A stretch of DNA of 64,000 bases from an uncultured Alphaproteobacteria bacterium (GTDB lineage: Bacteria; Pseudomonadota; Alphaproteobacteria; CAAHEQ01; UBA3637), in contig CALXWZ010000004.1 of NCBI GenBank assembly GCA_944392555.1, positions 26,525-90,524 on the forward strand, given 5' to 3'. Positions 1 through 14,534 of this stretch are shown piece by piece. Both the position numbers and the translations under genes were made by a program. Within the stretch, counting starts at the first letter, position 1. Every line of letters starts with the position of its first letter. The notes beneath the pieces are model-generated. The model did not search any database, was not told the DNA's origin, and was given only the letters and a program-made list of their open reading frames with translations.

Positions 1-10
1 TGATTTTGAT

Positions 11-784: not shown

Positions 785-785
785 T

Positions 786-1853: not shown

Positions 1854-1971
1854 TTCTATAATTGTATCAGTTTTTAACCTCGGTTTTGATGAAATCGAGG
1901 TTATTTTTTACTTCTTGCCCTTGGGGCATGTTTTGAAAATACTGCAGTTCTTGATGAAATTTTTTATTTTC

Positions 1972-1999
1972 AGCCTTTGTATGTGTGTATGTAAAGGTT
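1972..1999 (+). repeat. 28-bp imperfect palindrome, copy 1 (AGCCTTTGTATGTGTGTATGTAAAGGTT)
   Basis: Matches the copies at 6496 and 10886 in both arms; the 6-bp core differs. Confidence 0.8.
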
Positions 2000-2165
2000 A
2001 AAATTGTCTTGAATTTCTACTTTTTACTAATAACTCTCTAATTTTTTGTAGAAAAAGGCTCAAAAAAGTAGAATTTTTCTAATTTTTTTGCGTTTGGGGG
2101 GCTCGCGAATGGCTAAAAACGCGATATAATATACCTATAACCAACGAAAAAGAAAGGATTTTATT

Positions 2166-2300
2166 ATGTATCAAATAAAAGTAAATGGAATTTTAATGCC
2201 AACAATTTATTGGTCTTTAAGAGAAGCAATAGAAGCTTGTCAACGTGAAGCCGAACGTGGTTGTGCAGTTATGACAGATATCATATCAGTTGAACAATAA
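2166..2300 (+). CDS. Small hypothetical protein, 44 aa (MYQIKVNGILMPTIYWSL...)
   Basis: Below the ORF-track cutoff. GAAAGGA ribosome-binding site upstream; first of a run of small co-oriented ORFs. Confidence 0.6.
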   Translation: MYQIKVNGILMPTIYWSLREAIEACQREAERGCAVMTDIISVEQ

Positions 2301-2323
2301 ATAAACAGAAAGGAGAAACGTTT

Positions 2324-2614
2324 ATGTTAAATCAATTTCAAGCTTACTTAGTCCAAAGAGGATATAGAGAATTTTCGATTAATGGCAATCCATCAACGGC
2401 TATTGATTATGCTTGGAGAGTTGCCAAAGTATGCGAAAAAGAAAATTATACTGTCAAGCAATTAGCTGATACTATCAACACTATTTTAGAACAATATGGT
2501 CATTGTGGTGATAAATGGACAATTGGCAGACGTAGCCATGAAAGCTATATCAATGCCTTAAAACAATTTAGAAAGTTTGCGTTAGTTCAACGTTTTGGAG
2601 GCGCCAATGCCTAA
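2324..2614 (+). CDS. Hypothetical protein (mobile-element type)
   Basis: GAAAGGAG RBS and 96-aa ORF overlapping the next gene. Confidence 0.7.
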   Translation: MLNQFQAYLVQRGYREFSINGNPSTAIDYAWRVAKVCEKENYTVKQLADTINTILEQYGHCGDKWTIGRRSHESYINALKQFRKFALVQRFGGANA

Positions 2615-2804
2615 ATATCCAGATATAATAGTTGAATTGATTGGTCAAGATTCAAATGCATTTAACATTCTTGGAATATGCAGACGGGCTATGATAAAAA
2701 ACAGATTGCCTCAATCTGAAATAGATACCTTTATGCAAGAAGCAACTTCCGGTTCTTATGATGATTTATTGGCAACTTGTATGAATTGGTTTAATGTGGA
2801 GTAG
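2607..2804 (+). CDS. Conserved small phage/mobile-element protein (LIGQDSNAFNILG...TSGSYDDLL type)
   Basis: GGAGG RBS before the ATG at 2607. The pattern resembles a widespread ~65-aa phage protein family. Confidence 0.75.
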   Translation: MPKYPDIIVELIGQDSNAFNILGICRRAMIKNRLPQSEIDTFMQEATSGSYDDLLATCMNWFNVE

Positions 2805-2813
2805 AATACGTCA

Positions 2814-3137
2814 ATGAATACAGAAAAAATAAAACAATTAAATGATACATTGCGTAAAACATTTATTGGTGGACGTGTTATGCTAACAACAGGCATTAGA
2901 GCCAAATCAGCAGAAGACCAAGCCGAAATATTGCAAAAAGTCCGTTCCTTTAATGAATTTACAAAAGCAAATGATCCATACGCTGAGCATGATTATGGAA
3001 GATTTACGCATAACGGTGAAGATATTATGTTTAAAATAGACTATTACAATAAAACTTATGACAGAATGTCTGATGATCCAAGCAATCCAGAAATAACAAA
3101 TAGAATTATGACAATCATGTGTTCTGATGAGTACTAA
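2814..3137 (+). CDS. DUF3768-like protein
   Basis: LNDTLR, NDPYAEHDYG, FKIDYY and RIMTIMCSDEY C-terminus typical of DUF3768. Confidence 0.85.
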   Translation: MNTEKIKQLNDTLRKTFIGGRVMLTTGIRAKSAEDQAEILQKVRSFNEFTKANDPYAEHDYGRFTHNGEDIMFKIDYYNKTYDRMSDDPSNPEITNRIMTIMCSDEY

Positions 3138-3150
3138 ATAAAATTTGAAA

Positions 3151-3179
3151 TTGATTTTTTATAAAAAATTGTCTATAAT
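3151..3179 (+). promoter_or_regulatory. Sigma70-type promoter of the ATPase-nuclease gene
   Basis: TTGATT-17 bp-TATAAT. Confidence 0.55.
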
Positions 3180-3216
3180 ACATTCTTATTGCAACAGTTT
3201 AAATGGAACAAGTATT

Positions 3217-5382
3217 ATGTCAACACATAAACAAATTATAGGAATTAACGATACATTTAATCTTATTAAAAAGTCAGTTGAGCCTCTTTCTCCACTAAAA
3301 GAAGCAATTACAAATTCATTAGATTCAATAAAAGAACGAAGAAAAATTGATTGTGATTTTAAAGCAAAAATCGATGTTGAATTCTTTTTTAAATCTGGAT
3401 TTGATTTAATAAATGAAAAGGAAGTTTGTCTAGATTCTATAAAAATAACGGATAATGGAAAGGGATTTTATAAAGAAGCCTTAGAGCGCTTTAAAAGTTT
3501 AGCTGATAGAGGCAAATGCTATAATAATCGAGGAACTGGAAAAATTCAAATTTTTCATAGATTTAAAGAAATTTTCGTGGATAGTTTTTTTTATGAAGAA
3601 ACCCAAAAAAAACGCTTAAAATTATCTTATGATATAACTGATCAATTGCAAGAAACCATAGAAAATGATTCTTCAACTGATTTTTTTACATCTGTTTATC
3701 TTAGAAAGTTTTATGGAGATATTAACGATATAACTTATTATAGTAGATTATATGAAAATAACTTATTGATAAAACAAGATTTGTTGAAAAGTTTAATTTT
3801 ATATTTGTTTTTAGAAAAAGAAACTGGATTAACCATAAATATAAAAGTATTTGATAACAAGAAAGAAATTTTTTCTGATTGTTTGTCATCAGACGATATT
3901 CCCGAACCAGATAAAGAAGAAAAAGTAAATATTAATGAAGTATCTCTAGCTGATATTAATAAAGATTCAAAAAAAGAAACAATAGAGTGGAAAACTATTG
4001 GACAAACAGAATTAACTTTACGTCGTTTTAAATTACCTTTATCATATTCAGATGAAAATGGCGTTTTTTTATGCAGTAAAAATATTTTAATTGAAAAATA
4101 CAAATTTCCAATTCTACGTAAAAATACAAATTTTAATGGATTTCGTTATTTAACTAGTGTTAGTGGAAGTATATTAGATGAACATGTAAAACATACGGTT
4201 GATGGTTTTACGTTTCCAAAGAAAAAAGATATTGAAGATAAAATAACACAACGAGATTTATTTAATAATTCGTATATTTTTATTGACGAGATCGAAGAAA
4301 AACTAAATCAGAAGTTAAATCATATGTATTCTGATTTACAAAATTTAAGCGAAGAAAAAGAACAAAATATTATCAATATTGCAAAACGATATGGAATTAA
4401 TACAGATTTGGCAAAAACTATAAATGCGGGGTTAAATGATTCAGATGATGAGATTACAAAAAAACTTTTTGAAGCTCAATCGAAGGTTTTTGCAAAAAAA
4501 AGCATAGAAATTCAAAAAACATATGATGAATTAGCAAAACTAGAGGGGGTTAATTTTGATCCGTCAGATAGCGAATACGAAAAAAAATTTTTTGAAACAT
4601 CCTCTAAATTAATGGAATTAATCCCAGAGCAGAATAAGGATGAATTAGCCAGATATGTAATTCGTCGTGATATGCTGGTACGGTTATTAAAATTAGCTCT
4701 AAAGAATGAACTAGAAAAACAAAAACAATGGAAAGAACGAAAAGAAAAAGGTGAAAAAGTTCGAGAGGAGCAAGAGGGGTTAATTCATGATTTAATTTTT
4801 AAACGAAAAGCAAAAAATACTTTAAATGATTTATGGATATTAAACGAAGAGTTTTCTCATTTTCAAGGTTTATCTGATTTGCCATTAAATGAACTTGAAG
4901 TGAATAGTAAAAAATTATTAAAAAAAGACATAGATATTGAACAAGCCATGACTTCTGTTGGGTTAAGTTTGGGCTCCCGTCTAGAAAAGAGACCTGATAT
5001 TTTTCTATACCCAGAGGAAGGAAAGTGCATCCTTATAGAGTTTAAAGCTCCAGAGGTTGATTTAACAAAGCATTTGGATCAAATTTCCAAGTATGCCAAA
5101 TTAATTGCTAATTATTCTGAAGAAAAAATAACCCAATTCTATGGCTTTTTGATTGGCGAAAATATAAATCAAATTGATGTTCCTGATAGATACAGAAAAT
5201 CATTCTATAATGGTTATTGGTTCTATCCTGATGAACCGATAGCTTCTGTTGTAGATGGTATATCTATAGCAAATATATATCAAGAAATAATCCCTCTTTC
5301 TACCATCGCAAAGCGAGCATTTATTCGAAATAAAAGTTTTTCAGATAAGTTAGGTATCACTATTGAAAATAACAATTTTTAA
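3217..5382 (+). CDS. GHKL (MORC/HATPase-like) ATPase fused to a C-terminal PD-(D/E)xK nuclease; candidate defence protein
   Basis: EAITNSLDS (N box), ITDNGKGF (G1 box), RGTGK (G2 box), central coiled region, and C-terminal RPDI...ILIEFK...QISKY. The ATG at 3217 is preferred over the TTG at 3145. Confidence 0.8.
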   Translation: MSTHKQIIGINDTFNLIKKSVEPLSPLKEAITNSLDSIKERRKIDCDFKAKIDVEFFFKSGFDLINEKEVCLDSIKITDNGKGFYKEALERFKSLADRGKCYNNRGTGKIQIFHRFKEIFVDSFFYEETQKKRLKLSYDITDQLQETIENDSSTDFFTSVYLRKFYGDINDITYYSRLYENNLLIKQDLLKSLILYLFLEKETGLTINIKVFDNKKEIFSDCLSSDDIPEPDKEEKVNINEVSLADINKDSKKETIEWKTIGQTELTLRRFKLPLSYSDENGVFLCSKNILIEKYKFPILRKNTNFNGFRYLTSVSGSILDEHVKHTVDGFTFPKKKDIEDKITQRDLFNNSYIFIDEIEEKLNQKLNHMYSDLQNLSEEKEQNIINIAKRYGINTDLAKTINAGLNDSDDEITKKLFEAQSKVFAKKSIEIQKTYDELAKLEGVNFDPSDSEYEKKFFETSSKLMELIPEQNKDELARYVIRRDMLVRLLKLALKNELEKQKQWKERKEKGEKVREEQEGLIHDLIFKRKAKNTLNDLWILNEEFSHFQGLSDLPLNELEVNSKKLLKKDIDIEQAMTSVGLSLGSRLEKRPDIFLYPEEGKCILIEFKAPEVDLTKHLDQISKYAKLIANYSEEKITQFYGFLIGENINQIDVPDRYRKSFYNGYWFYPDEPIASVVDGISIANIYQEIIPLSTIAKRAFIRNKSFSDKLGITIENNNF

Positions 5383-5398
5383 TACTATAAACTCACAT

Positions 5399-5476
5399 AA
5401 ATCGCCATACGTCAGCGTTTTTGTTTTAGTATAGGCAAGTTAGTCAAAGAGCTGTGTTGCTTGCGTATGGCGATTT
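5399..5476. repeat. Long hairpin with 13-bp perfect inverted repeat AAATCGCCATACG / CGTATGGCGATTT
   Basis: Arms at 5399-5411 and 5464-5476, between convergent genes. Confidence 0.75.
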
Positions 5477-5609
5477 GGGATAGCTTTATGCTTGTGTTAT
5501 GAAAAAGGCTTAGAATTATTTGCTCATCATTTACAGATAAAATGCTTTTTCGTCAGCTTTCTTCAAAAAATGGACTGATTACTATTTCTCTCATATAGTA
5601 AATAAAAAT

Positions 5610-6197
5610 TTATGGAGCAGATAAAAACCATTCACGTATGCATTCATGTTTATTATACTGATTAAAATGACGGATAGGTTTCTGAAAATCTTTGCTCGTA
5701 AATATTCTGCTGGGTCTAAAACGTCTGTCTTTTTCTGATTTCACAAACTCTTTATCACCATAACACCAGAGTTGCTTCATATCTAATGGCTGTCCGGTTA
5801 TATCTATTAAAGTTTTATCTCTTACATCGGATATGTAATAGTAATATAGCATTAAATGATTGAGCATAAACTCATAAAAGTATTGAACCTTGTCTTTAGG
5901 TAGGTCTATTAAAATATGTAAATGTGGTGTGCTTTCATCTATATCTCTGTTCTTGCTATGCTCTAAGAATACGATCATCTTATATTGTTTTTCAGGATGT
6001 TTGTTGTATCTTTTACCAAGAGTTTTGGAATAATATTTTCCCAGTCCTTCTTTAAAACGATATGCAAGATTCTGTTCAGAGATATTTGTTTGTCCAGGAT
6101 TAAAGGTAATGAACGTATTAGGTACAAAGCCATTTTCATATAACCGTTTAATTATCTTTTCTTGTTCTGGACTTGATATTTCAACAATATTGCGCAT
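5610..6197 (-). CDS. Putative HUH-superfamily endonuclease (rolling-circle Rep-like)
   Basis: FITF (motif I-like), FLE...PHLHILI (HUH) and downstream YGDKE (YxxK-like). Confidence 0.55.
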   Translation of the reverse strand: MRNIVEISSPEQEKIIKRLYENGFVPNTFITFNPGQTNISEQNLAYRFKEGLGKYYSKTLGKRYNKHPEKQYKMIVFLEHSKNRDIDESTPHLHILIDLPKDKVQYFYEFMLNHLMLYYYYISDVRDKTLIDITGQPLDMKQLWCYGDKEFVKSEKDRRFRPSRIFTSKDFQKPIRHFNQYNKHECIREWFLSAP

Positions 6198-6495
6198 TTC
6201 ATTGTCTCCTTTTTTAAGTGAAGAGAGGGTATACTTATGAATAGATAAAGGAGAAGTCTCGCTTTACCTGTACGCCTTTTTCAGAATCTAAACAGGAAGA
6301 AACCTTCAACTATTTTCAAGCAATTCTTCAAAATTCGATACCATTCATACTTTTTATAGAACATTTTGTTTTTAAAATTTAAAGCGATAGGAACTTACTT
6401 TTTACAATAATGCCTTGAAAACCGTTTTAACATGTCGTGAATCATCAGAAATGTAAAACCGTTTTTTGTGTTTGAGATGTTTTTTTTCATTTTCC

Positions 6496-6523
6496 AACCT
6501 TTGTACATACGTAGGTAAAGGTT
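6496..6523 (+). repeat. 28-bp imperfect palindrome, copy 2 (AACCTTTGTACATACGTAGGTAAAGGTT)
   Basis: Same arms and orientation as copies 1 and 3. Confidence 0.8.
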
Positions 6524-6570
6524 AATCATTGTATGCATTAAGTCAGAAGTTAAATAAAAAAAGAGGCGGC

Positions 6571-8676
6571 TTATGCCACCTCTTCATTCTCGTTTTTTTC
6601 TTCCTTTTGTTCAATTTTAATCAGATTTTTTCGATGAGGCAAAGGAATTGTTTCCATGATTCTTTCCAACATGCGAGGTAAAAAAATCTCTCCCATCACT
6701 GTCCAAATAAAGTTTTCATATTTCTTATCTTCAAACTTTTTAGGAATTGTGTAATCTTCGGGAAGAGTATTTAATAAAAATGTCTCTCGTAAAGTACAAC
6801 AACGAGGATCCGAATAGGTTCCATCTGGTTTAAGTCTTCCAGGATGGATGGTGCGTAAACCTAATGCTTGATTTGACCCACCTTCAATTGTGCTCCAAGG
6901 CTTATTCCAAGAATTTCTAGAACACTTCGCACCGAAAAAACCATAGCCGGGAATTTGATATTCTGGTGGATTATCAGCAACACAACAACCCGGGGCTGTA
7001 TGAATCAAAGCATTATAGATTTCGGCCGCTAATTCAGGATTTTTATTTGATAAAAGAGGTGCTTTATCATAACCAGTTCCCTCACCAGGTTCAAGTGACG
7101 GTAAATGACCAATCACTTGCCAAGGTAATACAGCATGATCATCTTTTTTAGGAAATGGCCATACCCCGGTTTGGGATGCTAACACAATGGATCTAACGCG
7201 CGATTGAGGGTAGCCATAAAAACAAGCGTCTTCATTTGCAAAATTAATATCATAATTTTCAGAAGTTAATTCATCTTTAATATATTGTCCAATGGTTTTA
7301 CCTTTTAATGCAATACGTAAATTTTTGGCTGGTTTTCCATCATTTTTTGTATTTTTTGGCATTGAGAAGTTTAAGAACTGTTTGGCATTTTCAATAACAA
7401 TATATTTGGGTTTGACCTCCTTAATAAACTTAATCAGCCAAACAATCAAATCCAATCTGGGATCCTTCAAAAAGCCTTTGCCTTTTTGTGCGCAGAAAAT
7501 TTGACAAGGTGGACAGGCCAAAATCAGTTGACAGTTTCTTTTTTTAAATTCATCAACCAGTTCATCAAAGTGATCTTGAAATTTGCCTTGAAACATTTTG
7601 CAGTCCTCCTCGCCCAATTCTTTCATTTTTAAAGAGAAGTATTCTGCCCGTTTTTCATCAGCTTCATTGGCTAAGACACATTTAAAACCGCGTGATTTTA
7701 AATAATATTCACCAGACCCAATGCAAGAAAAAATTGAACAATAAGGTATATCTTCTTCCGTAATTCTACCCAATAAGTCATCATGAGAAACTGCAGAAAA
7801 AGAAGTGTCCAGTTCAAATGCATCTTTACATTCTTTTTCAACTTTAGAACTTTCTTTGTTCAAAAATGATAATGCGTGTCGTCTGGAAGGAACTTCGTTG
7901 TTTGCAATTGCATAGTTCATTTCAAGTTCAATCACTTCATCACTTAAACGTACTAAGTCACGTGCTTGGTTATAAGTAAGCCCGTAATCTTCATCTAAAA
8001 TTTGTCTTTTAGTGCGAATTTCTTCAAAGACTTCTTTAAAAGGACGCTTTACCTTTTTTTTATCTTCATTTTTGTCCTTATCTTTACTTTTGTCAGCCTC
8101 TTTGCCCTTTTCTTTTTCTTTTAAATCGCTTCTAACACCTTCTTGTGTCGCAATTTTTTGGAGTTCTTTACCTAATCTCGCTTCTGCTTTAAGCCAGAGA
8201 TATGCATATAATTGAGCTTTTTGCAAAAAGAATTTCTGTGCAGTTGGTGGCAGTTTTTTCATTTTTGAGAAGCTCTCAGCAGTTTTTGAGATTCCTTGTT
8301 GACAACGAATAAATTGTTGTAATTTAATCGAATCAGTTGGAATATATACAGCTTTTGGATTGTTTTCACAAATCATTTCAAGCTGGTCTTTAGGTAAATC
8401 AAATTGATCAACAATAGCGTCAATATCGATAAACAATTCTTCTTGTGATGGAATTGGAACTACTGCACATTCATTTGGTTTGTTAGGATTGTCTGGGATA
8501 TTGTCATTCGCATGCTCCTGTACATCAATTTCCGAAGCCTTCATAACGTTAATTTCAGTATACTCGGCTTCAATAATTTCTTGATGTGTTTTAGTTTGAA
8601 CGGTTTCACCATTCACGACTTGTTTTGTATTTTCTGCCAAGACATTGTCATTGGCGATTTTTCTAATTTTTTTCAT
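6571..8676 (-). CDS. DNA (cytosine-5) methyltransferase with ~300-aa N-terminal extension
   Basis: SIFSCIG (motif I variant), ANE (motif II), PPCQ (catalytic motif IV), IENA (motif VI), PQSRVR (motif VIII), RCCTLRE (motif IX), MGE (motif X variant). Confidence 0.85.
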   Translation of the reverse strand: MKKIRKIANDNVLAENTKQVVNGETVQTKTHQEIIEAEYTEINVMKASEIDVQEHANDNIPDNPNKPNECAVVPIPSQEELFIDIDAIVDQFDLPKDQLEMICENNPKAVYIPTDSIKLQQFIRCQQGISKTAESFSKMKKLPPTAQKFFLQKAQLYAYLWLKAEARLGKELQKIATQEGVRSDLKEKEKGKEADKSKDKDKNEDKKKVKRPFKEVFEEIRTKRQILDEDYGLTYNQARDLVRLSDEVIELEMNYAIANNEVPSRRHALSFLNKESSKVEKECKDAFELDTSFSAVSHDDLLGRITEEDIPYCSIFSCIGSGEYYLKSRGFKCVLANEADEKRAEYFSLKMKELGEEDCKMFQGKFQDHFDELVDEFKKRNCQLILACPPCQIFCAQKGKGFLKDPRLDLIVWLIKFIKEVKPKYIVIENAKQFLNFSMPKNTKNDGKPAKNLRIALKGKTIGQYIKDELTSENYDINFANEDACFYGYPQSRVRSIVLASQTGVWPFPKKDDHAVLPWQVIGHLPSLEPGEGTGYDKAPLLSNKNPELAAEIYNALIHTAPGCCVADNPPEYQIPGYGFFGAKCSRNSWNKPWSTIEGGSNQALGLRTIHPGRLKPDGTYSDPRCCTLRETFLLNTLPEDYTIPKKFEDKKYENFIWTVMGEIFLPRMLERIMETIPLPHRKNLIKIEQKEEKNENEEVA

Positions 8677-8880
8677 GTTTTATTTTCCTTTATTTAAATT
8701 TGCGTTCCTTTCGAAACACAACTTTCCCAACTTGAGAAAGTGGAGTGAATATAGCACAGGATTAAAATTAGTCAAATTTATTGACGACATTTTGCGACAC
8801 ACAATAGTCATAATAACATATTGATAAATAAGTATTACTAATGGGTATTGATAAAGTATATATGTTTTATTCTTCTAGCT

Positions 8881-10035
8881 TTAAAGCTCAATTTTTTCGT
8901 TAAAGTATCCTACTTTTTTCTTAAAATACCGTGTTGTTGGAATTTTTTTTGCTCTTGCTGCGCGCTGAATAGTGCGATTCGTTTTGCCCGTGAGTTTTGA
9001 AATTTCTTTGCAAGTAGTCCAAGGCGATATTTTATTAAGCCCATAACTTTGATAATCGGACAATAACTTATTTATATATTTTAATATTTCTTTTTTGCGT
9101 TCTTGTTTTTTGTCATCAGATAAAGTCGGATTAATTCTTTTTAACTTTTCTGTACAATTTAATAATGCCGCATATGCATTTTCAATAAAATCTTCCTGTT
9201 TTGATGTAAAAATCACTCCATTTTTATTTTTTTGATACAATCCAGTATGTTTTGTTAAGAAATACGCATTTAAATCAGCGATGTTTACAGACTCCTTTCT
9301 ATGATGACAACTAGAAATCTTATTTTCTTTCAACATCTTCTTAATTGTTCTATGGTCGCATTTAAATATTTTTGTCAGAGCGCTGACAGGGATTCCAACT
9401 TGTCCAGCCCTAGCAATAATCATTGCAGGCGTTCTTTTTGTCGCCTCAATATACCCATATTTCCAAAAAACGCTATCATCATTTCTTAGTTCTTCTAATC
9501 TTTCTTCTATTTCTTCATACAGGGTCGAATAACCATCAAATTTTGTATCTTTCAAAAAATCATAAAACAGTTCTATGACTTTTTGATATTCATTACCCGA
9601 CTTTTTTCGACATAGATAAATTACCATTTTCTCAAATAAATCATCTTTAAACATTTGATGATGTGTAGTCCTCTGATCCTTAGAAACCCTGTGATGAAAA
9701 AAAACATTGGCTAGTAGCCGTATTTCTTCTGTTTTCAACATTTCATTTGGTTCTTTTAAAGATGTACACAAACAACAATACATCATAGAAGTTTCAATAT
9801 TATGTGCCAATTGAATCAATGCGTTTTCTTTTTGAAGCGATGCATCTTCTTTTTTAGCTGGAAAAAATTTATTACAAAAACGTGAAAGTCTCTCTGCATA
9901 AGCGATAGCAGTTCCTAGTCGATATTTCTTTAGGGTATCATCTTTTTTTTGTTGCACTAACCAATAAATAAAGTCTGTCCAATAAATAAAGTCTGTTTGG
10001 ATGGAACTTTTATATTTATAATTTTTTTTCTTCAT
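8881..10035 (-). CDS. Hypothetical protein with probable helix-turn-helix segments
   Basis: 384-aa ORF. VSALTKIFKCDHRTIKKM and CKEISKLTGKTNRTIQRAAR resemble excisionase/MerR-type HTH segments. Confidence 0.6.
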   Translation of the reverse strand: MKKKNYKYKSSIQTDFIYWTDFIYWLVQQKKDDTLKKYRLGTAIAYAERLSRFCNKFFPAKKEDASLQKENALIQLAHNIETSMMYCCLCTSLKEPNEMLKTEEIRLLANVFFHHRVSKDQRTTHHQMFKDDLFEKMVIYLCRKKSGNEYQKVIELFYDFLKDTKFDGYSTLYEEIEERLEELRNDDSVFWKYGYIEATKRTPAMIIARAGQVGIPVSALTKIFKCDHRTIKKMLKENKISSCHHRKESVNIADLNAYFLTKHTGLYQKNKNGVIFTSKQEDFIENAYAALLNCTEKLKRINPTLSDDKKQERKKEILKYINKLLSDYQSYGLNKISPWTTCKEISKLTGKTNRTIQRAARAKKIPTTRYFKKKVGYFNEKIEL

Positions 10036-10098
10036 TTTACGACTTCCTTTTTTTCATAATAACCTATTACTTTATAAAAGTAAAACCGAAAATTAAGA

Positions 10099-10746
10099 CT
10101 AACTAAAAAAAGAATTGGCTTTAATTGTATATAATAAATTTAAAAGAAAATCCCCCACAAAATAATCATCTATAATATCATTTTTTGTTAATGGCAGGGT
10201 TTTGTATTCAATAGTCTCTCTTGTCTCTTTATCTAAAATACGATGCTCTACTTTGATTTTAGGGATAGCATTATCTAAAAGACATATTAAGTCATCTACA
10301 TTTACTTTTACAATGGATTTTACTTCTTTATCTGAAACCAACATATTAAAATCCGGCAAGTCAAAATTGACTGGAATTCCATAAATGTGTTGAAACTCTC
10401 TTAATTTATATTTTACAGTTAAATCTTTATTTATTCTACGTATACCAATAAAATAGGCGTTATCCATAATTTCTTTATCTAACCCCAATTCTTCTTTTGC
10501 TTCCCGATATAAACCATCTAATGGCGTTTCATTGTCCTCTATATGACCTCCAACAGCAAAATCTATATAATCTGGTCTGTCAAAGCCATAGTTATCTTTT
10601 GGATAGATTGTTTGAAAGAAAATTATTTTTTTGGCAGGATTATACACAATCCCAGTAGCGACTTTATGCCAATAGCCTTTTATATGAGCTTCTTTTTTAT
10701 CAACAGGTCCAATATATACCATATTCTTGTCATATCTACTGATCAT
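10099..10746 (-). CDS. NUDIX hydrolase (IDI-like subfamily)
   Basis: GGHIEDNETPLDGLYREAKEELGL Nudix box; AHIKGYWH N-terminal motif. Confidence 0.85.
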   Translation of the reverse strand: MISRYDKNMVYIGPVDKKEAHIKGYWHKVATGIVYNPAKKIIFFQTIYPKDNYGFDRPDYIDFAVGGHIEDNETPLDGLYREAKEELGLDKEIMDNAYFIGIRRINKDLTVKYKLREFQHIYGIPVNFDLPDFNMLVSDKEVKSIVKVNVDDLICLLDNAIPKIKVEHRILDKETRETIEYKTLPLTKNDIIDDYFVGDFLLNLLYTIKANSFFS

Positions 10747-10885
10747 TGCTTACTTCCCCCAGTATTTTTATATATTTTCTGCAATGAATAAAGCAAGTAT
10801 AGTATAATTTTTATAAAAGTAAAACCATTTTGAAACCAAAAAGTTAAGATTTTGTATGGATATTTAAGATGTTGGCATTTGTTTC

Positions 10886-10913
10886 AACCTTTGTATACGT
10901 ATAGGCAAAGGTT
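10886..10913 (+). repeat. 28-bp imperfect palindrome, copy 3 (AACCTTTGTATACGTATAGGCAAAGGTT)
   Basis: Best dyad symmetry, extending to TTTCAACCTTTG/CAAAGGTTGAAA at 10882-10917. Confidence 0.8.
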
Positions 10914-11238
10914 GAAATGAGCAATCATACTGAATAAGCATAGCCTCTCATTGGCTCTCGCATGTAAAGGCCTTGTCTAAAAATGAGCCAATTAACGATG
11001 TTGCATTTAATTTTGATGACTGGGATGTGCCGGTCGGGCTCCCAAGGTCCTCTAGATTGCAGATAGGGCTCCCGAGATGGTGGCGGTGTGGATGGTCTAA
11101 TTCAACTTCCGGCCCTAAGGGCAGGTTTAGATAGCTTGCTCAAGTTGTAATTGAAAAGAAAGGCTTTCAATTAAACGATACAAATCATCAATTTCTTTGA
11201 TATTATTAGCTCGGTATTCGCTAAGCACGTTGTACCAA

Positions 11239-11277
11239 AACCCCTTCAACGCAAATCGCATTGAGGGGGTTATTTTT
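11239..11277 (+). terminator. Intrinsic terminator-like hairpin at the island boundary
   Basis: AACCCCTTCAACGC / GCATTGAGGGGGTT followed by ATTTTT. Confidence 0.6.
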
Positions 11278-11353
11278 ATATTCTATAAGAAAAAACTTGT
11301 TTCAGAAAGCGGCTACTCATTTATTTTTGTTTTAAGCTCAGAGAATTTTTTGG

Positions 11354-11382
11354 TTGCAAATTAAAAATATTTTGTTTAGAAT
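11354..11382 (+). promoter_or_regulatory. Sigma70 promoter, unit 1
   Basis: TTGCAA-17 bp-TAGAAT, conserved in all three units. Confidence 0.75.
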
Positions 11383-11387
11383 AAGCG

Positions 11388-11442
11388 AGCCTGGTTGTTT
11401 ATGCCCGCCAGGCTAGGATTTGACAGTCCGAGAAGTAGTAAG
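11388..11442 (+). promoter_or_regulatory. C4 a1/b1-like cis target region, unit 1
   Basis: Hairpin AGCCTGG/CCAGGCT, then GGA-TTTGACAG-TCC loop and AAGTAGTAAG, complementary to 11565-11571 and 11551-11560. Confidence 0.65.
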
Positions 11443-11487
11443 GGCAGAAAATATCTGCCGGCATCTGCCACGGGTGATGCGTTATGC

Positions 11488-11591
11488 GTCGGGCTGGGGG
11501 TGGATGCCTGCCAAATAGAGGTATTCACCTGAATAAGCAGGGCTATTTTGCTTACTACTTATAGCTGTCAACATCCACCCGCCTTTACGAC
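11488..11591 (+). ncRNA. C4/CI-like antisense RNA, unit 1
   Basis: Closing stem GGGTGGATG/CATCCACCC, arm CCTGC/GCAGG, and arm GCTAT/ATAGC displaying a variable loop followed by a variable single-stranded segment. Confidence 0.7.
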
Positions 11592-11636
11592 ACAGGTGGG
11601 TTTCGTGTTTTAAAAGAGGCAGAGAAAGGTGGGAAA

Positions 11637-11825
11637 ATGAAAGAGAATAACGACACACTCAATCAAGTAATGCTTAAATGTGCATGGGAATTAAGCGCGA
11701 GTAATCCACCCGAAATTACGGATGAAGAAATGCCCGCGTTGATTAAAGATTATCGCCGAAAAATTTTAATTGAACAAATTAAATATGTATGGCGAAAAAT
11801 TGCATTTTATTTGTTCCCGTTTTAA
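11637..11825 (+). CDS. Small 62-aa protein downstream of C4-like RNA 1
   Basis: GAAAGG RBS; paralog at 12455 with mostly silent nucleotide differences in the shared part. Confidence 0.75.
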   Translation: MKENNDTLNQVMLKCAWELSASNPPEITDEEMPALIKDYRRKILIEQIKYVWRKIAFYLFPF

Positions 11826-11843
11826 GTGCGGTGAATTTTTTAG

Positions 11844-11872
11844 TTGCAAATAAAAATTATTTCGTTTAGAAT
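11844..11872 (+). promoter_or_regulatory. Sigma70 promoter, unit 2
   Basis: TTGCAA-17 bp-TAGAAT. Confidence 0.75.
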
Positions 11873-11977
11873 AAATACGCTTGGTTGATTATGCCCGCCA
11901 AGCTAGGATTTAGTAGTCCGAGCGTCTATGAGGGCAGAAAATATCTGTCGGCATCCGCCACAGGGCGACGTTTATGC

Positions 11978-12080
11978 GTCAAGCTGAGGGTGGATGCCTG
12001 CCAAATAGAGGTGTCCGCCTGAATAAGCAGGGCTATTTTTCTCATAGACGATAGCTACTAACATCCACCCGCCTTACGAC
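11978..12080 (+). ncRNA. C4/CI-like antisense RNA, unit 2
   Basis: Same scaffold. CTCATAGACG (12041-12050) and CTACTAA (12055-12061) are complementary to upstream CGTCTATGAG (11923-11932) and TTAGTAG (11910-11916). Confidence 0.7.
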
Positions 12081-12126
12081 ACAGGTGGGTTTTGCGTTTT
12101 TAAAGGTGGCAGAGAAAGGTGGGAAA

Positions 12127-12171
12127 ATGAAAAAGAATGACGACACATTGAATAACGCATCATTTTTTTAG
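12127..12171 (+). pseudogene. Truncated copy of the small ORF (MKKNDDTLNNASFF*)
   Basis: Same RBS and similar first codons to 11637 and 12455, then interrupted by the start of unit 3. Confidence 0.7.
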
Positions 12172-12200
12172 TTGCAATTTTAAAATGTTTCGTTTAAAGT
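12172..12200 (+). promoter_or_regulatory. Sigma70 promoter, unit 3
   Basis: TTGCAA-17 bp-TAAAGT. Confidence 0.7.
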
Positions 12201-12305
12201 AAACGGGCTTGGTTGTTCATGCCCGCCAAGCTAGGACGTAACAATCTGATAATCAGCAAGGGCAGTGAAGACTGTCGGCATCCGCCACAGAGCGACGCTT
12301 TATGC

Positions 12306-12409
12306 GTTAGGCAAAGGGTGGATGCCTGCTAAATAGGGATATCCGCCCGAATAGGCAGGGCTATTTTTCTTGCTGATTATAGTTGTTAACATCCACCCGC
12401 CTTTACGAC
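12306..12409 (+). ncRNA. C4/CI-like antisense RNA, unit 3
   Basis: Same scaffold. CTTGCTGATTAT (12369-12380) and TTGTTA (12383-12388) are complementary to upstream ATAATCAGCAAG (12249-12260) and TAACAA (12239-12244). Confidence 0.7.
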
Positions 12410-12454
12410 ACAGGTGGGTTTCGTATTTTAAAAGAGGCAGAGAAAGGTGGGAAA

Positions 12455-12643
12455 ATGAAAGAGAATAACGACACACTCAATCAAGTAATGCTTAAATGTG
12501 CATGGGAGTTAAGTGCGAGCAATCCGCCCGAAATTACGGATGAAGAAATGCCCGCGTTGGTTAAAGACTATCGCCGAAAAATTTTGCTTGCCAAAATTAA
12601 GTATGGCATAAATAAATTGCTGGTTGCTTTATTTGGGAGCTAA
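12455..12643 (+). CDS. Small 62-aa protein downstream of C4-like RNA 3
   Basis: Paralog of 11637-11825; the true start is the ATG at 12455 after the GAAAGG RBS. Confidence 0.75.
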   Translation: MKENNDTLNQVMLKCAWELSASNPPEITDEEMPALVKDYRRKILLAKIKYGINKLLVALFGS

Positions 12644-12731
12644 CTTAAGAATCGTTATGCAAAGCCACACGCGCGGTCAGTGCGAACAGCCCACGTTGCA
12701 GGTAAATATACTCAAAGATAAAGAATAAATT

Positions 12732-14534
12732 TTATTCGTCCCCGATTTTAAGGGCTTGAATAAAAGCGCTTTGCGGAATTTCTACATTCCCGAATTGACG
12801 CATTTTCTTCTTTCCCTCTTTTTGTTTTTCAAGCAACTTACGCTTACGGGTAATATCACCGCCATAGCATTTTGCCGTTACATCTTTCCGATAAGCCGAA
12901 ATATCTTCCCGCGCGATAATTTTACCGCCGATACTGGCTTGAATCGGAATTTTAAATTGATGACGCGGAATCAGTGTTTTAAGGCGTTCGCAAATTTGTC
13001 GACCGCGACGCTCGGCTTGCGAACGGTGCACTAAAAAGGCCATTGCATCCACTTGTTCACCGTTGACCATAATATTGACGCGAACTAAATCGCTCTTTTC
13101 ATAGTCGGACACCTCATAATCAAAACTGGCATACCCGCGCGAAATGGATTTTAACCTATCATAAAAATCAAACACAATTTCATTAAGCGGTAAGTGATAG
13201 ACTACCATTGCCCGATTGCCGACGTAGGTTAAATCTTTTTGCACACCGCGACGTTCCGTGCAGAGTTGCAAAATACTGCCCAAGTATTCATCCGGCGTCA
13301 TAATCGTTGCTTTGACCCATGGCTCCTCAATGAACTGAATGGTGCTGGGATCCGGCATATCGGCAGGATTATGCATCGTCATCACATCACCGTTAGTCAG
13401 GTGAACTTGATACGCAACCGAGGGCGCCGTTGTAATTAAATCCAGATTAAATTCACGGCTTAATCGCTCTTGAATGATTTCCATGTGCAACAAGCCTAAA
13501 AATCCGCATCGGAATCCTTGTCCGAGCGCCATGGATTTATCAGGCGTAAATTGAAAGGAGGCATCATTTAATTGCAATTTCCCGAGTGATTCTTTTAAAT
13601 TTTCATAGTCGCTCATATCCACGGGGAATAAAGAGCAAAACACTACCGATAAACTGGGTTTAAATCCGGGGAGGGGGCTTGGCGTTGGGTTTTTATCATC
13701 GGTAATCGTATCGCCCACGCGCGTTTCGCCGATGGATTTAATGCCACAAATAATAAAGCCGAGTTCCCCTGTGCCGATTTGTTCGGAATCCGTCATTTTG
13801 GGCGTAAAATACCCCAATCGCTCCACCTTATACACGGCATCGGTTGCCATCATCCGAATGCTCATCCCTTTTTTCAATGTGCCGTCAATAACGCGCACAA
13901 GAACAATAATTCCCAAATATGCATCATACCAAGAATCAACCAGCATGGCTTTTAACGGGGCGGTTGCATCGCCTGTCGGTGCAGGCAGTTGCGTAACAAT
14001 TGTTTCCAGCACTTCATCAATCCCAATGCCTGTTTTGGCAGAAATCAACGGCGCTTCCGAGGCATCAATACCGATAACATCTTCTATTTGCGCTTTCACC
14101 CGTTCCGGATCGGCAGCCGGTAAATCAATTTTATTGATAACGGGCACAATTTCATGATTGGCATCCAACGCTTTATAAACATTTGCCAACGTTTGCGCCT
14201 CAACGCCTTGCGACGCATCAACAACCAACAGCGAACCTTCGCACGCAGCCAAAGATCGGCTGACTTCATACCCAAAATCTACATGCCCCGGCGTATCAAT
14301 TAAATTCAGAATGTATTTTTCGCCGTCCTCGGCTTGATAATTTAAGCGAACGGTTTGGGCTTTAATCGTAATACCACGTTCGCGCTCAATATCCATATTA
14401 TCCAGCAACTGTTCTTTCATTTCACGATCGGAAACGGCACCGCATTTTTGAATTAATCTGTCTGCCAAGGTGGATTTGCCGTGGTCAATATGGGCAACAA
14501 TGGAAAAATTGCGAATATGTGATAAATCTGTCAT
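12732..14534 (-). CDS. lepA: Translation elongation factor 4 (LepA)
   Basis: [56 protein letters not shown]. Confidence 0.98.

What the first reader, a model, noticed from the sequence alone, without database searches (positions are those of the whole stretch)
11341..12643. Tandem array of three C4-like antisense RNA cassettes, each with a different programmed specificity
Seen: three co-oriented units, each with its own TTGCAA-17-TAGAAT/TAAAGT promoter and a conserved RNA scaffold. Two short segments differ strongly between units yet stay perfectly complementary to partners about 120-145 nt downstream in the same unit. Unit 1: TTGACAG/CTGTCAA and AAGTAGTAAG/CTTACTACTT. Unit 2: TTAGTAG/CTACTAA and CGTCTATGAG/CTCATAGACG. 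Unit 3: TAACAA/TTGTTA and ATAATCAGCAAG/CTTGCTGATTAT. Established: this layout (upstream hairpin plus a1/b1 targets, then a branched RNA exposing a'/b') is that of the P1/P7 C4 and P4 CI immunity RNAs, where the a'/b' sequence sets immunity type. Inference: an array of three specificities with no antirepressor or phage genes behind it, beside lepA, could be a host-held library of antisense immunity RNAs. It could alternatively be a set of sensors for incoming phage/satellite RNAs, i.e. a fixed scaffold with swappable bipartite guides.
Basis: partly seen in the sequence, partly recalled or inferred. Interest (0 to 1): 0.88.

Follow-up and report, generated by a model that had tools for sequence, protein, structure and literature searches.

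The report
Tandem C4-like leader RNA cassettes
Three neighbouring gene cassettes each make a folded RNA, built like the phage P1 C4 antisense RNA, that carries its own private pair of matching recognition sequences and sits in front of a small gene; it belongs to a large, so far uncatalogued RNA family of uncultured gut bacteria.

Summary
Window 11341-12643 holds three co-oriented units. Each has a TTGCAA-17-TAGAAT/TAAAGT promoter, a ~230-nt structured RNA, a terminator hairpin and a ribosome site with a 62-aa ORF, which is cut to 14 aa in unit 2. In every unit two 5' segments (a1, b1) are exactly complementary to two 3' segments (b', a'). These segments are 51% alike between units; the rest of the RNA is 86.5% alike.

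The 3' 86 nt fold with the topology of phage P1 C4: a closing stem, two hairpins, b' in the second loop, a' single-stranded, and an RCC tail. The order a1-b1...b'-a' is also that of P1. No Rfam model hits the window. Relatives of the same family score below threshold on sRNA-Xcc1 (RF02221) and C4 (RF01695).

My own covariance model finds the family in 71 of 80 genomes of this gut alphaproteobacterial family, with up to 35 copies in 1.1 Mb. Nearly every copy lies in front of an ORF, in housekeeping surroundings. There is no downstream a2/b2 target, no trans target in the genome, and no copy in viral contigs.

The "immunity library" reading is therefore not supported. A unit-specific, self-addressed C4-type leader RNA that controls its own cassette fits better. 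It is a new variant of a known kind.

The parts
11354..11382 (+). Unit 1 promoter-like site, TTGCAA-17-TAGAAT
   Evidence: Consensus scan. The same position is kept in units 2 and 3 and in relatives.
11389..11413 (+). Unit 1 5' hairpin at the start of the RNA
   Evidence: Predicted. One compensatory pair (UA to CG) among the three units.
11420..11426 (+). Unit 1 a1 (TTGACAG), shown in the loop of a small GGA/UCC hairpin
   Evidence: Exact complement of a'. The a1 segment sits in a closed loop in 46 of 47 units tested.
11433..11442 (+). Unit 1 b1 (AAGTAGTAAG)
   Evidence: Exact complement of b'.
11460..11469 (+). Unit 1 segment X (GGCATCTGCC), the alternative partner of the 5' strand of the closing stem
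   Evidence: A 10-bp helix with 11499-11508 in the MFE fold. It is conserved and covaries across 56 units.
11498..11583 (+). Unit 1 C4-like core: closing stem 11498-11506/11572-11580, hairpin P2, hairpin P3 with b' (11551-11560) in its loop, a' (11565-11571) single-stranded, GCC tail 11581-11583
   Evidence: Own models R1 and R2 score 97.3 and 89 bits. Fold. Covariation.
11577..11611 (+). Unit 1 terminator-like hairpin (ACCCGCCT/AGGTGGGT) with a U-rich tail; it overlaps the last 4 nt of the closing stem
   Evidence: Folds. The equivalent site in unit 2 is called by the scan at 12067-12090. GC-rich hairpins with T runs stand at this place in relatives.
11637..11825 (+). Unit 1 ORF, 62 aa, behind GAGAAAGGTGGG
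   Evidence: ORF list. Eight homologues of exactly 62 aa. 10 synonymous against 7 non-synonymous codon differences to the G005 orthologue. No Pfam, PHROG or NCBIfam family.
11844..11872 (+). Unit 2 promoter-like site, TTGCAA-17-TAGAAT
11879..12100 (+). Unit 2 RNA: a1 11910-11916, b1 11923-11932, core 11988-12073 with b' 12041-12050 and a' 12055-12061, terminator 12067-12100
12127..12171 (+). Unit 2 ORF remnant (14 codons, then a stop); the rest is lost at the junction with unit 3
   Evidence: Sequence. The G005 array has the same junction.
12172..12200 (+). Unit 3 promoter-like site, TTGCAA-17-TAAAGT
   Evidence: Read from the sequence and aligned with units 1 and 2. It falls below the scan's threshold.
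12207..12430 (+). Unit 3 RNA: a1 12239-12244, b1 12249-12260, core 12316-12401 with b' 12369-12380 and a' 12383-12388, then the terminator hairpin
   Evidence: Contigs of RNA libraries cover 12221-12418 and 12192-12385.
12455..12643 (+). Unit 3 ORF, 62 aa, with a different C-terminal tail from unit 1
   Evidence: 13 synonymous against 10 non-synonymous differences to G005c.

Best explanation
Each unit is a self-contained cassette. A sigma-70-type promoter drives a ~230-nt leader RNA that ends in an intrinsic terminator. A ribosome site and a small ORF follow.

The last ~86 nt of the leader form a C4 / sRNA-Xcc1-type RNA. It has a 9-bp closing stem with an RCC tail, which in P1 C4 is the RNase P recognition form. 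It has two hairpins, with b' exposed in the second loop and a' single-stranded. The 5' part of the same leader carries the matching sites: a1 in a small hairpin loop and b1 single-stranded.

Inferred mechanism, as in P1 C4 and P4 CI: the core is cut out and acts as an antisense RNA. Its partner is its own leader, by loop-to-strand pairing at a1/b1, and not a downstream or foreign message. In the primary transcript a1/b1 hold a'/b' closed, X holds the closing stem open, and the terminator forms, so the cargo ORF stays off. Processing or pairing in trans shifts this balance, so each cassette sets the expression of its own ORF.

The a/b code is a private address. It keeps the many paralogous cassettes in one cell from cross-talking, which would explain why it diversifies while the scaffold stays fixed. 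The tandem array arose by duplication of such a cassette.

Shown: the anatomy, the covariation, the family and its contexts.
Inferred: processing, action in trans, and the direction of control.
For: Anatomy and topology equal to P1 C4
-.

Covariation of the core fold
- 9 of 23 pairs carry compensatory changes in 33 sequences, 94.5% of cells paired.
- 16 of 23 pairs in 77 distinct sequences, 95.8% paired. That alignment was fitted to the model.

Private a/b codes
- In 26 units from 16 genomes, each unit's own 5' part holds a perfect complement of its own b' (mean 9.2 nt) and a' (mean 6.4 nt). Foreign units give 5.0 and 4.2 nt (596 pairs).
- In one genome, G080, 30 units score 14.1 nt against themselves and 6.5 nt across units (870 pairs; 4 reach 14 or more).
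- The variable segments are 51% alike against 86.5% for the scaffold.
- G005a combines the a of unit 1 with the b of unit 2, with both partners matched.

Presentation of the sites
- a1 lies in a closed loop in 46 of 47 units.
- b' lies in the P3 loop.
- The tail is RCC in 47 of 77 distinct sequences and RCT in 29 of 77.

Alternative helices
- The X:X' helix is conserved and covaries. Own units average 8.44 bp (n=56) and controls 5.82 bp (n=918); 1.1% of controls reach the own median.
- The terminator overlaps the closing stem.

Leader role
- An ORF of at least 40 aa starts within 260 nt in 35 of 38 units.
- An SD site plus an ORF follows 25 of 30 G080 units.
- The ORF here is conserved, with synonymous changes outnumbering non-synonymous ones.

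Link to known RNAs
- RF01695 gives 26-29 bits in 5 of 80 genomes.
- RF02221 gives up to 48.9 bits in 48 of 80 genomes.
- All six RF01695 loci tested carry an R2 hit at the same place, and several RF02221 places coincide with R1 hits. The 14 control genomes give 0 hits for either model.

Weak hint of expression
- Contigs of three RNA libraries from two studies cover just the RNA parts: 11397-11654, 12221-12418 and 12192-12385, at depths of 10.3, 16.7 and 4.3.
- The neighbouring lepA end has depth 2.7-3.7.
Against: - No Rfam model reaches even E = 10 on the window's units.
- My models do not find P1 c4 significantly: 7.5 and 8.7 bits, E about 0.8. Homology to C4 therefore rests on sub-threshold, transitive hits.
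- The defining C4 target (a2/b2 over the next gene's ribosome site) is missing. Downstream own-versus-foreign matches are equal, 5.35 against 5.18 nt and 4.15 against 4.35 nt.
- The thermodynamic test of the switch failed. The MFE of the full transcript has X:X' plus the terminator in 23 of 26 units and the closing stem in 0 of 26. Blocking a1/b1 moves 0 of 26 to the closing-stem state.
- Processing, transcript ends and strand cannot be read from contigs, and DNA may be present in those RNA libraries.
- The promoter and terminator scans are not enriched over shuffles: 4 found against 3.6 expected, and 2 against 1.7.
- A purely intramolecular helix would give the same own-versus-foreign statistics.
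Confidence: 0.5

Rival explanations
1. A purely cis-acting structured leader, such as an attenuator, a stabilising 5' structure or a ligand- or temperature-sensing element. Here a1:a' and b1:b' would be ordinary long-range helices, and nothing would act in trans. The apparent 'specificities' would come from fast compensatory drift plus gene conversion between paralogues.
For: - The MFE of the whole transcript always contains the a1:a' and b1:b' helices together with X:X' and the terminator. Blocking a1/b1 does not change the terminator state in silico.
- No trans target exists in the genome.
- The nested order a1[b1...b']a' lets one conversion tract swap both partners at once, as in G005a.
- The RNA always precedes an ORF.
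Against: - The helices are the fastest-changing part of the RNA (51% against 86.5% identity). The other helices are nearly fixed. That is the opposite of what purely structural helices do.
- a1 sits in a closed loop (46 of 47 units) and b' in a loop. This is the form used for fast intermolecular recognition, and it matches P1, where these sites do pair between molecules (annotation).
- The closing stem with its RCC tail covaries although it is absent from the MFE of the full transcript. A second, processed form is therefore under selection.
Confidence: 0.25
2. A toxin-antitoxin-like module. The C4-type RNA would be the antitoxin or repressor of a harmful small protein encoded just downstream, as with c4-icd in P1 or sRNA-Xcc1-symE in Xanthomonas integron cassettes. 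The array would then be three addiction or defence modules beside a restriction-modification island.
For: - P1 c4 precedes icd, annotated as an inhibitor of cell division.
- sRNA-Xcc1 lies upstream of symE in the most widespread Xanthomonas cassette (passages of 10.1101/2025.06.18.660453).
- The commonest cargo in relatives (17 of 38 units) gives weak YpsA/SLOG matches: 17.2 and 25.3 bits against a cut-off of 27.7, and 3 of 19 proteins.
- The 62-aa ORF has a hydrophobic tail and no known family.
- Methylase and nuclease genes lie upstream.
Against: - The a'/b' segments do not match the ORF's leader or ribosome site.
- The cargo is very varied. It includes endonuclease I, ~60-aa lipoprotein-like ORFs and 370-450-aa secreted-looking proteins, which are not typical toxins.
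- No toxicity data exist.
- I did not scan PADLOC, so a defence role was not tested.
Confidence: 0.12
3. One reading: a host-held library of antisense immunity RNAs, or sensors, aimed at the transcripts of incoming phages, satellites or plasmids that carry matching a/b sites.
For: - The a/b codes are hypervariable and reassort.
- C4 sets immunity type in P1/P7 (passages of PMC5320573).
- The array lies at the edge of a methylase/nuclease island.
- The same idea was raised for the multi-copy C4-like sRNAs of A. baumannii.
Against: - Every unit carries its own perfect target.
- IMG/VR holds no family member, by two patterns.
- The a..b patterns of the three units hit viral contigs only at about the rate I estimated by hand, not from a control, for 17-19 fixed bases and a 28-30-nt gap window (at least 120, 22 and 40 stretches).
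- Units number up to 35 per 1.1-Mb genome, lie in front of ordinary chromosomal genes, and have mostly housekeeping neighbours. Only 2 of 85 neighbouring ORFs match Phage_integrase.
- Viruses and plasmids of these uncultured bacteria are poorly sampled, so this absence is weak evidence.
Confidence: 0.08
4. The decayed immunity region of an adjacent prophage.
For: The C4-type layout is best known from the immI region of P1.
Against: - The same three-unit array, with intact ORFs and matched codes, stands beside lepA in another species, G005.
- No phage gene families appear among the neighbours, apart from weak NUDIX PHROGs.
- The family is present in 71 of 80 genomes.
Confidence: 0.02

Closest known systems
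C4 antisense RNA of phages P1/P7 (Rfam RF01695) with its a1/b1 sites (the 'c4-a1b1' motif listed by Weinberg et al. 2010, PMC2864571)
   Same: - The order is 5' hairpin, a1, ~6-7 nt, b1, ~55-90 nt, then the core.
- The core has a closing stem, a first hairpin, a second hairpin with b' in its loop, a' single-stranded, and an RCC tail.
- The a/b segments differ between variants while the scaffold is kept.
- Unit 1 even has the same a1/a' letters as P1, TTGACAG/CTGTCAA. I take this as chance or convergence.
   Different: - No a2/b2 target lies downstream, and no icd-ant operon or phage context is present.
- The core has its own terminator that overlaps the closing stem, and an extra anti-closing-stem segment X.
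- The closing stem is 9 bp against 17 bp in P1.
- The Rfam model does not hit the window, and my models do not hit P1 significantly.
- The definition of c4-a1b1 is in a supplement that I could not read.
sRNA-Xcc1 (Rfam RF02221) of Xanthomonas/Xylella, including the tandem sXF1-5 array of Xylella fastidiosa Temecula1
   Same: - It is the best-scoring Rfam family on relatives of this RNA: up to 48.9 bits, full length 1-87, with the same closing stem / AAUA-hairpin / second hairpin / ACC layout.
- It occurs in several copies per genome and in a tandem array of five with ~381-386-nt spacing (table passage of PMC12189769).
- It lies upstream of a small gene, symE, in integron cassettes.
   Different: - None of the 80 genomes reaches the 53-bit cut-off, and neither the window nor G000 has any hit.
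- The hosts here are gut Alphaproteobacteria, not Xanthomonadaceae.
- I did not look for integron features.
- Whether sRNA-Xcc1 loci carry cis a1/b1 partners was not examined here and is not stated in the passages I read.
Group 1 'C4-like' sRNAs of Acinetobacter baumannii AB5075 (Weiss et al. 2016, PMC5320573)
   Same: - Many chromosomal copies in one genome.
- They are variable in the a' region.
- RNA-seq suggests processing from a longer transcript at a GG(W) start.
- The authors also discuss phage exclusion against host gene control (passages).
   Different: - Those RNAs are recognised by the Rfam C4 motif; these are not.
- The passages I read report no self-matching a1/b1 for them.
- The copy density here is higher (35 in 1.1 Mb).
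CI immunity RNA of satellite phage P4 (recalled; no call)
   Same: A processed, RNase P-dependent small RNA that pairs with sequences of the same leader transcript and controls termination. This is the closest analogue for autogenous action on an upstream site.
   Different: - P4 has targets on both sides (seqA and seqC), while here there is only the upstream one.
- No sequence comparison was made. Everything said about P4 here is from memory.

Membership tests
Rfam C4 antisense RNA (RF01695) | Scores at or above the family's gathering score (45 bits) on the covariance model | tested here: not met
   - No match at gathering in the window.
- None up to E = 10 in 10700-12800 or in the whole genome.
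- Other members of the family in 5 of 80 related genomes reach 26-29 bits, and 0 of 80 pass the cut-off.
Rfam C4 antisense RNA (RF01695) | Fold: closing stem, two hairpins, b' in the loop of the second, a' single-stranded before the 3' strand, 3' RCC tail | tested here: met
   Folds of the three cores beside P1 c4. Covariation. Tail counts: RCC in 47 of 77 and RCT in 29 of 77.
Rfam C4 antisense RNA (RF01695) | a1 and b1 upstream in the same transcript, complementary to a' and b' | tested here: met
   P1 annotation. Three of 3 units here. 26 of 26 and 30 of 30 units in relatives match better to themselves than to other units on average.
Rfam C4 antisense RNA (RF01695) | a2/b2 target downstream, with b2 over the ribosome site of the next gene (icd), followed by the antirepressor | tested here: not met
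   Downstream own matches equal foreign ones in the 26 units. The downstream ORFs have no icd or ant family.
Rfam C4 antisense RNA (RF01695) | Excised from a longer transcript by RNase P into a ~77-nt RNA | not testable with these tools
   Only assembled contigs of RNA libraries were available. They cover 194-258 nt spans and cannot show transcript ends.
Rfam sRNA-Xcc1 (RF02221) | Scores at or above the gathering score (53 bits) | tested here: not met
   - No match up to E = 10 in the window region, and none in G000.
- 48 of 80 related genomes have matches at E of 0.01 or less, the best at 48.9 bits, and 0 pass the cut-off.
- 0 of 14 control genomes match.
Rfam sRNA-Xcc1 (RF02221) | Located in integron gene cassettes, on transposons or on plasmids | not tested
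   No search for attC sites or IntI was made. Only 2 of the 85 ORFs neighbouring 10 loci match Phage_integrase.
c4-a1b1 motif (Weinberg et al. 2010) | Consensus as defined by its authors | not testable with these tools
   The motif is only named in the table of PMC2864571, without an Rfam accession.
P4 CI RNA type of immunity | Complementary sites on both sides of the RNA in the leader (seqA, seqC) | tested here: not met
   Only upstream sites exist. The P4 features are recalled, not fetched.

The most novel reading that the evidence does not exclude
The family could be a set of orthogonal, self-addressed RNA switches. Each cassette would carry a private two-part lock (a1/b1) and key (a'/b') on a fixed C4-type scaffold. 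The excised key RNA would feed back on its own leader only. A 1-Mb genome could then run dozens of independent, possibly bistable (phase-variation-like), on/off decisions for secreted and surface proteins, SLOG proteins and small ORFs, with no protein regulator. That would be a natural, programmable system of many insulated RNA-RNA pairs.
Probability: 0.15. Interest if true: 0.8.

Novelty: new variant of a known kind. Interest (0 to 1): 0.6.

Why it matters
C4-type RNAs are understood only in P1/P7. Their many chromosomal relatives (A. baumannii group 1 sRNAs, sRNA-Xcc1) have no established function. This locus belongs to a branch that Rfam 15 does not detect in the window. That branch is present in 71 of 80 sampled genomes of a family of uncultured gut Alphaproteobacteria, at up to 35 copies per 1.1 Mb.

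The family offers an unusually clean natural experiment. Dozens of paralogues share a fixed scaffold, each has its own matched bipartite code, and three mutually exclusive helices all covary. This makes the open question directly testable by swapping codes: what are a1/b1 for, and do host C4-like RNAs act on themselves or on others?

The family also supplies a ready set of candidate orthogonal RNA pairs, and a new covariance model for annotating these MAGs.

Tried and rejected
1. Rfam on the window, on 20 related loci at gathering and RF01695 on the genome: nothing. I then built my own models.

2. blastn of unit 1 against 50,697 phage records: no match.

3. Trans targets.
- A script scan of the whole genome for a..b with up to 1+2 mismatches gave only scattered mismatched hits. 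The exact bipartite matches were the units themselves.
I judged this to be about the chance rate for 17-19 fixed bases with a 28-30-nt gap window. That estimate is my own and was not computed from a control. I did not inspect the loci.

4. Two family patterns in IMG/VR: 0 stretches. These are exact patterns, so divergent members would be missed.

5. In-silico switch test. Blocking a1/b1 never moved the MFE to the closing-stem state, 0 of 26 units. The simple thermodynamic antitermination model is therefore not supported. A kinetic or processing-driven model stays open.

6. Homology to P1 c4 by my models: not significant. R2's alignment does end exactly at the annotated c4 ends, 48343-48419.

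7. Function of the 62-aa ORF. Pfam, PHROGs, NCBIfam and the ESM Atlas gave nothing. Homologues are all 62 aa, without names.

8. My impression that the 370-450-aa cargo proteins of G080 begin with a prepilin-type motif, and that the ~60-aa ones are lipoproteins, is recalled from their N-termini. Pfam and NCBIfam did not confirm it.

9. I first took the organism for a Pasteurellaceae because of an AAGTGCGGT word at 11826. The record titles show gut Alphaproteobacteria MAGs: 42 of 44 stretches, plus 1 'Ruminococcus' and 1 'Proteobacteria'.

10. Parts of the stretch without cover in the RNA libraries are not used as evidence.

11. A retron, guide-RNA or transposon RNA reading was considered and dropped. 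No reverse transcriptase, transposase or nuclease partner is among the neighbours scanned, and the variable segments pair with each other.

Supplements of PMC2864571 and PMC5320573, which may hold the c4-a1b1 consensus and the A. baumannii alignments, could not be seen.

Full report
**What is there**

Window 11341-12643 contains three co-oriented repeats with start-to-start spacings of 490 and 328 nt. Aligned over 313 columns they have 90% mean column identity.

Each unit has the following parts.
- A promoter-like TTGCAA-17-TAGAAT. Units 1 and 2 are called by the scan. Unit 3 has TAAAGT, read by eye.
- A 5' hairpin.
- Two short segments, a1 and b1.
- Two internal hairpins.
- An 86-nt 3' core that holds b' and a'.
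- A GC-rich hairpin with a U-rich tail.
- GAGAAAGGTGGG and an ATG.

The ORF is 62 aa in units 1 and 3 (11637-11825, 12455-12643). In unit 2 it stops after 14 codons, where unit 3 begins.

**Is it more than chance?**

- RNAalifold predicts 74 pairs for the three RNAs. Thirteen have compensatory changes: 12 in the a1:a' and b1:b' helices and 1 in the 5' hairpin.
- Unit 1 folds at -102.1 kcal/mol, z = -5.78, and 0 of 200 shuffles fold as well.
- The four variable segments are 51.0% alike between units (52/102). The rest of the RNA is 86.5% alike (530/613).

**The organism and the family**

The window is contig C4 of a 1.5-Mb, 13-contig genome that is 98.3% complete. An exact pattern for the core's closing stem found 44 stretches in the species collection. 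Forty-two are titled as uncultured Alphaproteobacteria MAGs from animal and human guts, one as 'Ruminococcus' and one as 'Proteobacteria'. My first guess of Pasteurellaceae was wrong.

blastn with unit 1 found matches in 16 of 61 related genomes, counting G000. One is a second species, G005, with the same three-unit array. That array also lies beside lepA: the downstream flank is 92% identical, while the upstream flank gave no match in the ~1.5 kb of G005 sequence held upstream.

I built a covariance model of the 86-nt core from 33 sequences (R1).
- It finds the RNA in 71 of 80 genomes of the family. That is 49 of 54 good-quality genomes and 13 of 16 genera.
- Many genomes hold many copies.
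- One 1.1-Mb genome has 35 copies, several of them at contig ends.
- G000 has five: the array plus two divergent units at C5:1492-1571 and C2:55192-55271.

A second model from 92 matches (R2) finds the RNA in 12 of 151 genomes sampled across the class, counting G000.

Tandem pairs or triplets also occur in other genomes, for example G002, G073 and G082 (coordinates).

**The fold of the core**

Folded alone, each core gives four features.
- A 9-bp closing stem, GGGUGGAUG/CAUCCACCC.
- A hairpin P2.
- A hairpin P3, closed by CUAU/AUAG, with b' in its loop.
- a' single-stranded, and a GCC tail.

The structure is supported by covariation.
- In 33 sequences, 94.5% of cells are paired and 9 of 23 pairs have compensatory changes. 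No shuffle reaches this, and slid controls give 36.6-44.7% paired.
- In 77 distinct sequences, 95.8% are paired and 16 of 23 pairs are compensatory. That alignment was fitted to the model, which favours the structure.
- The 3' tail is RCC in 47 of 77 and RCT in 29 of 77.

**Comparison with P1 C4**

I fetched the annotated P1 record. It has promoter P1c4, a1 at 48255-48261, b1 at 48269-48276, c4 RNA at 48343-48419, a2 and b2 downstream, then icd and ant.

P1 c4 folds into a closing stem, a first hairpin, a second hairpin with b' in its loop, a' single-stranded and an ACC tail. A 5' hairpin precedes a1. Order and topology are therefore the same as here. By coincidence, a1/a' of unit 1 have the same letters as in P1.

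Similarity by model is weak.
- RF01695 finds nothing in the window or the genome.
- R1 and R2 score P1 c4 at 7.5 and 8.7 bits, E about 0.8.
- In relatives, RF01695 gives full-length matches of 26-29 bits in 5 of 80 genomes. All six such loci tested carry an R2 hit of 55-63 bits at the same place.
- cmscan of those loci shows sRNA-Xcc1 (RF02221) scoring higher, at 30.9-35.2 bits.
- RF02221 matches 48 of 80 genomes at E of 0.01 or less. The best is 48.9 bits against a cut-off of 53. None passes the cut-off, none is in G000, and 0 of 14 control genomes match.
- Several RF02221 places coincide with R1 hits.

I conclude that the family is a distant, uncurated branch of the C4 / sRNA-Xcc1 kind.

**The a/b code**

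- In 26 units from 16 genomes, the unit's own 5' part contains a perfect complement of its b' (mean 9.2 nt, minimum 6) and its a' (mean 6.4 nt). Comparison with units of different code gives 5.0 and 4.2 nt over 596 pairs. The a1-b1 spacer is 4-9 nt.
- In G080, 30 units score 14.1 nt against themselves and 6.5 nt against each other over 870 pairs. Four cross pairs reach 14 or more, because they share one module.
- Modules reassort. G005a has the a of unit 1 and the b of unit 2, both with matched partners.
- a1 lies in the loop of a 3-7-bp hairpin in 46 of 47 units. Random positions reach this in 41.5% of trials.

**What is missing**

- No second copy of a/b lies in the 170 nt downstream of the core. 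Own matches are 5.35 and 4.15 nt, foreign ones 5.18 and 4.35 nt.
- The genome has no other exact bipartite site.
- No family member was found in IMG/VR by two patterns or among 50,697 phage records by blastn.

**Alternative helices**

The 5' strand of the closing stem (X') can also pair with an upstream segment X (GGCAUCYGCC). This helix is conserved and covaries between subfamilies. Own units average 8.44 bp (n=56) and controls 5.82 bp (n=918); 1.1% of controls reach the own median.

The 3' strand of the closing stem overlaps the terminator hairpin by about 4 nt. The arrangement 1:2, 2:3, 3:4 looks like an attenuator.

The MFE of the full transcript has 1:2 plus 3:4 in 23 of 26 units and 2:3 in none. 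Blocking a1/b1 flips none of the 26. The simple equilibrium switch is therefore not supported. The closing-stem form, which is clearly under selection, must arise by processing or kinetics.

**Context and cargo**

Upstream of the array lie DNA methylases, an HSDR_N-like protein, an HTH protein and a NUDIX hydrolase. Downstream, lepA converges on the array.

Across relatives the RNA precedes an ORF.
- 35 of 38 regex-defined units have an ORF of at least 40 aa starting within 260 nt.
- 25 of 30 G080 units have an SD site plus an ORF.

The commonest cargo (17 of 38 units) is a 145-165-aa protein starting MGK-C-FFGH. It gives sub-threshold YpsA/SLOG matches. Other cargo includes endonuclease I, ~60-aa and 370-450-aa proteins with hydrophobic N-termini and no family, and the 62-aa ORF found here.

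The 62-aa ORF looks like a real gene. All eight homologues are 62 aa. Codon differences to the G005 orthologues are 10 synonymous to 7 non-synonymous, and 13 to 10.

Of 85 ORFs around 10 loci, only 2 match Phage_integrase. DNA polymerase I, GcrA, L19 and TrmD are among the neighbours.

**Expression**

Only assembled contigs were available. In three RNA libraries from two studies of gut samples, contigs cover 11397-11654 (depth 10.3), 12221-12418 (depth 16.7) and 12192-12385 (depth 4.3). These are the RNA parts of units 1 and 3. The lepA end has depth 2.7-3.7. This is a weak hint. Contigs show no ends or strand, and DNA may be present in the libraries.

**Literature (what I saw)**

- PMC2864571, passages: lists the c4 antisense RNA (RF01695) and a c4-a1b1 motif in gamma-Proteobacteria and phages. 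The details are in a supplement I could not read.
- PMC5320573, passages: describes many chromosomal C4-like sRNAs in A. baumannii that vary in a' and appear processed. It cites Weinberg for C4 motifs in several orders.
- PMC12189769, passages and table: lists seven sRNA-Xcc1 homologues in Xylella fastidiosa Temecula1, five of them in tandem at ~381-386-nt spacing.
- Preprint 10.1101/2025.06.18.660453, passages: places sRNA-Xcc1 upstream of symE in the most widespread Xanthomonas integron cassette.
- Searches for 'c4-a1b1', for C4-like sRNAs since 2016 and for 'sRNA-Xcc1' showed nothing in their listings on this alphaproteobacterial family. These searches cover only the held library.
- The primary P1 and P4 papers were not held. 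What I say about RNase P processing of C4 comes from the passages of PMC5320573. What I say about P4 is from memory.

**Verdict**

The functional reading as an immunity library is not supported.

The best reading is a C4 / sRNA-Xcc1-type leader RNA that carries its own matched a1/b1 partner and controls its own downstream ORF. The a/b code serves as a private address among many paralogues.

It is a new variant of a known kind. Multi-copy and tandem C4-like or sRNA-Xcc1 RNAs are already in print. What is new is the branch, its host group, its density, the strictly upstream self-target, and the three covarying alternative helices.

Noticed in passing
G000 contigs C5:1492-1571 and C2:55192-55271 (outside the window; loci L075, L076): Two further, divergent units of the same RNA family with another closing stem (GGCAGGAAG/CTTCCTGCT-ACC). 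Each has its own promoter-like site, an a1 loop and a terminator. Each is followed by a short ORF: about 59 aa with a repeated ...VYDEKG..LFSK motif in one, and about 25 aa in the other.
   Followed up: partly
window 1-10750: The array borders a stretch rich in DNA-modification genes. These are an N6/N4 methylase fragment (2-784), a D12 adenine methylase (786-1853), a 745-aa protein with an HSDR_N-like nuclease end (3145-5382), a 701-aa C5 cytosine methylase (6571-8676, minus strand), a 384-aa protein with weak HTH matches (8881-10035, minus strand) and a NUDIX hydrolase (10099-10746, minus strand). The corresponding upstream flank is not found next to the G005 array in the ~1.5 kb held there, so this looks like a variable island.
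   Followed up: partly
window 10750-11340: A ~590-nt stretch without a long ORF lies between the NUDIX gene and unit 1. It includes a GC-rich part (about 10973-11134) and a hairpin with T/A runs at about 11237-11275. Neither Rfam nor my models match it. I did not fold it.
   Followed up: no
loci of G080, e.g. L259, L264, L270, L277, L284 (just downstream of the RNA units): A second dispersed repeat (...CCGCTGGATCCTCGGGTTCAGCTGACGCTGCCCCAAGGATGACAGAG... and relatives) lies between the leader RNA and the body of several cargo genes. It is often inside the predicted reading frame, which makes the true start codons there uncertain.
   Followed up: no
G080 cargo ORFs (alignment A6): Two of the 19 cargo proteins behind the RNA units give strong matches to Teneurin-type EGF domains (best E = 2.7e-39), which is unusual for a bacterium with a 1.1-Mb genome.
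   Followed up: no
L027 (phage P1) 49862-49964: My model R2 gives its best score on the P1 stretch (16.1 bits, E = 0.022) at the start of kilA, where the record annotates an antisense promoter (PaskilA), and not on c4. It is probably chance.
   Followed up: no
window 11826-11834: The word AAGTGCGGT, which I recall as the Haemophilus-type uptake signal, occurs at the unit 1/2 junction and again in G005. It misled me about the organism and is most likely a coincidence.
   Followed up: partly
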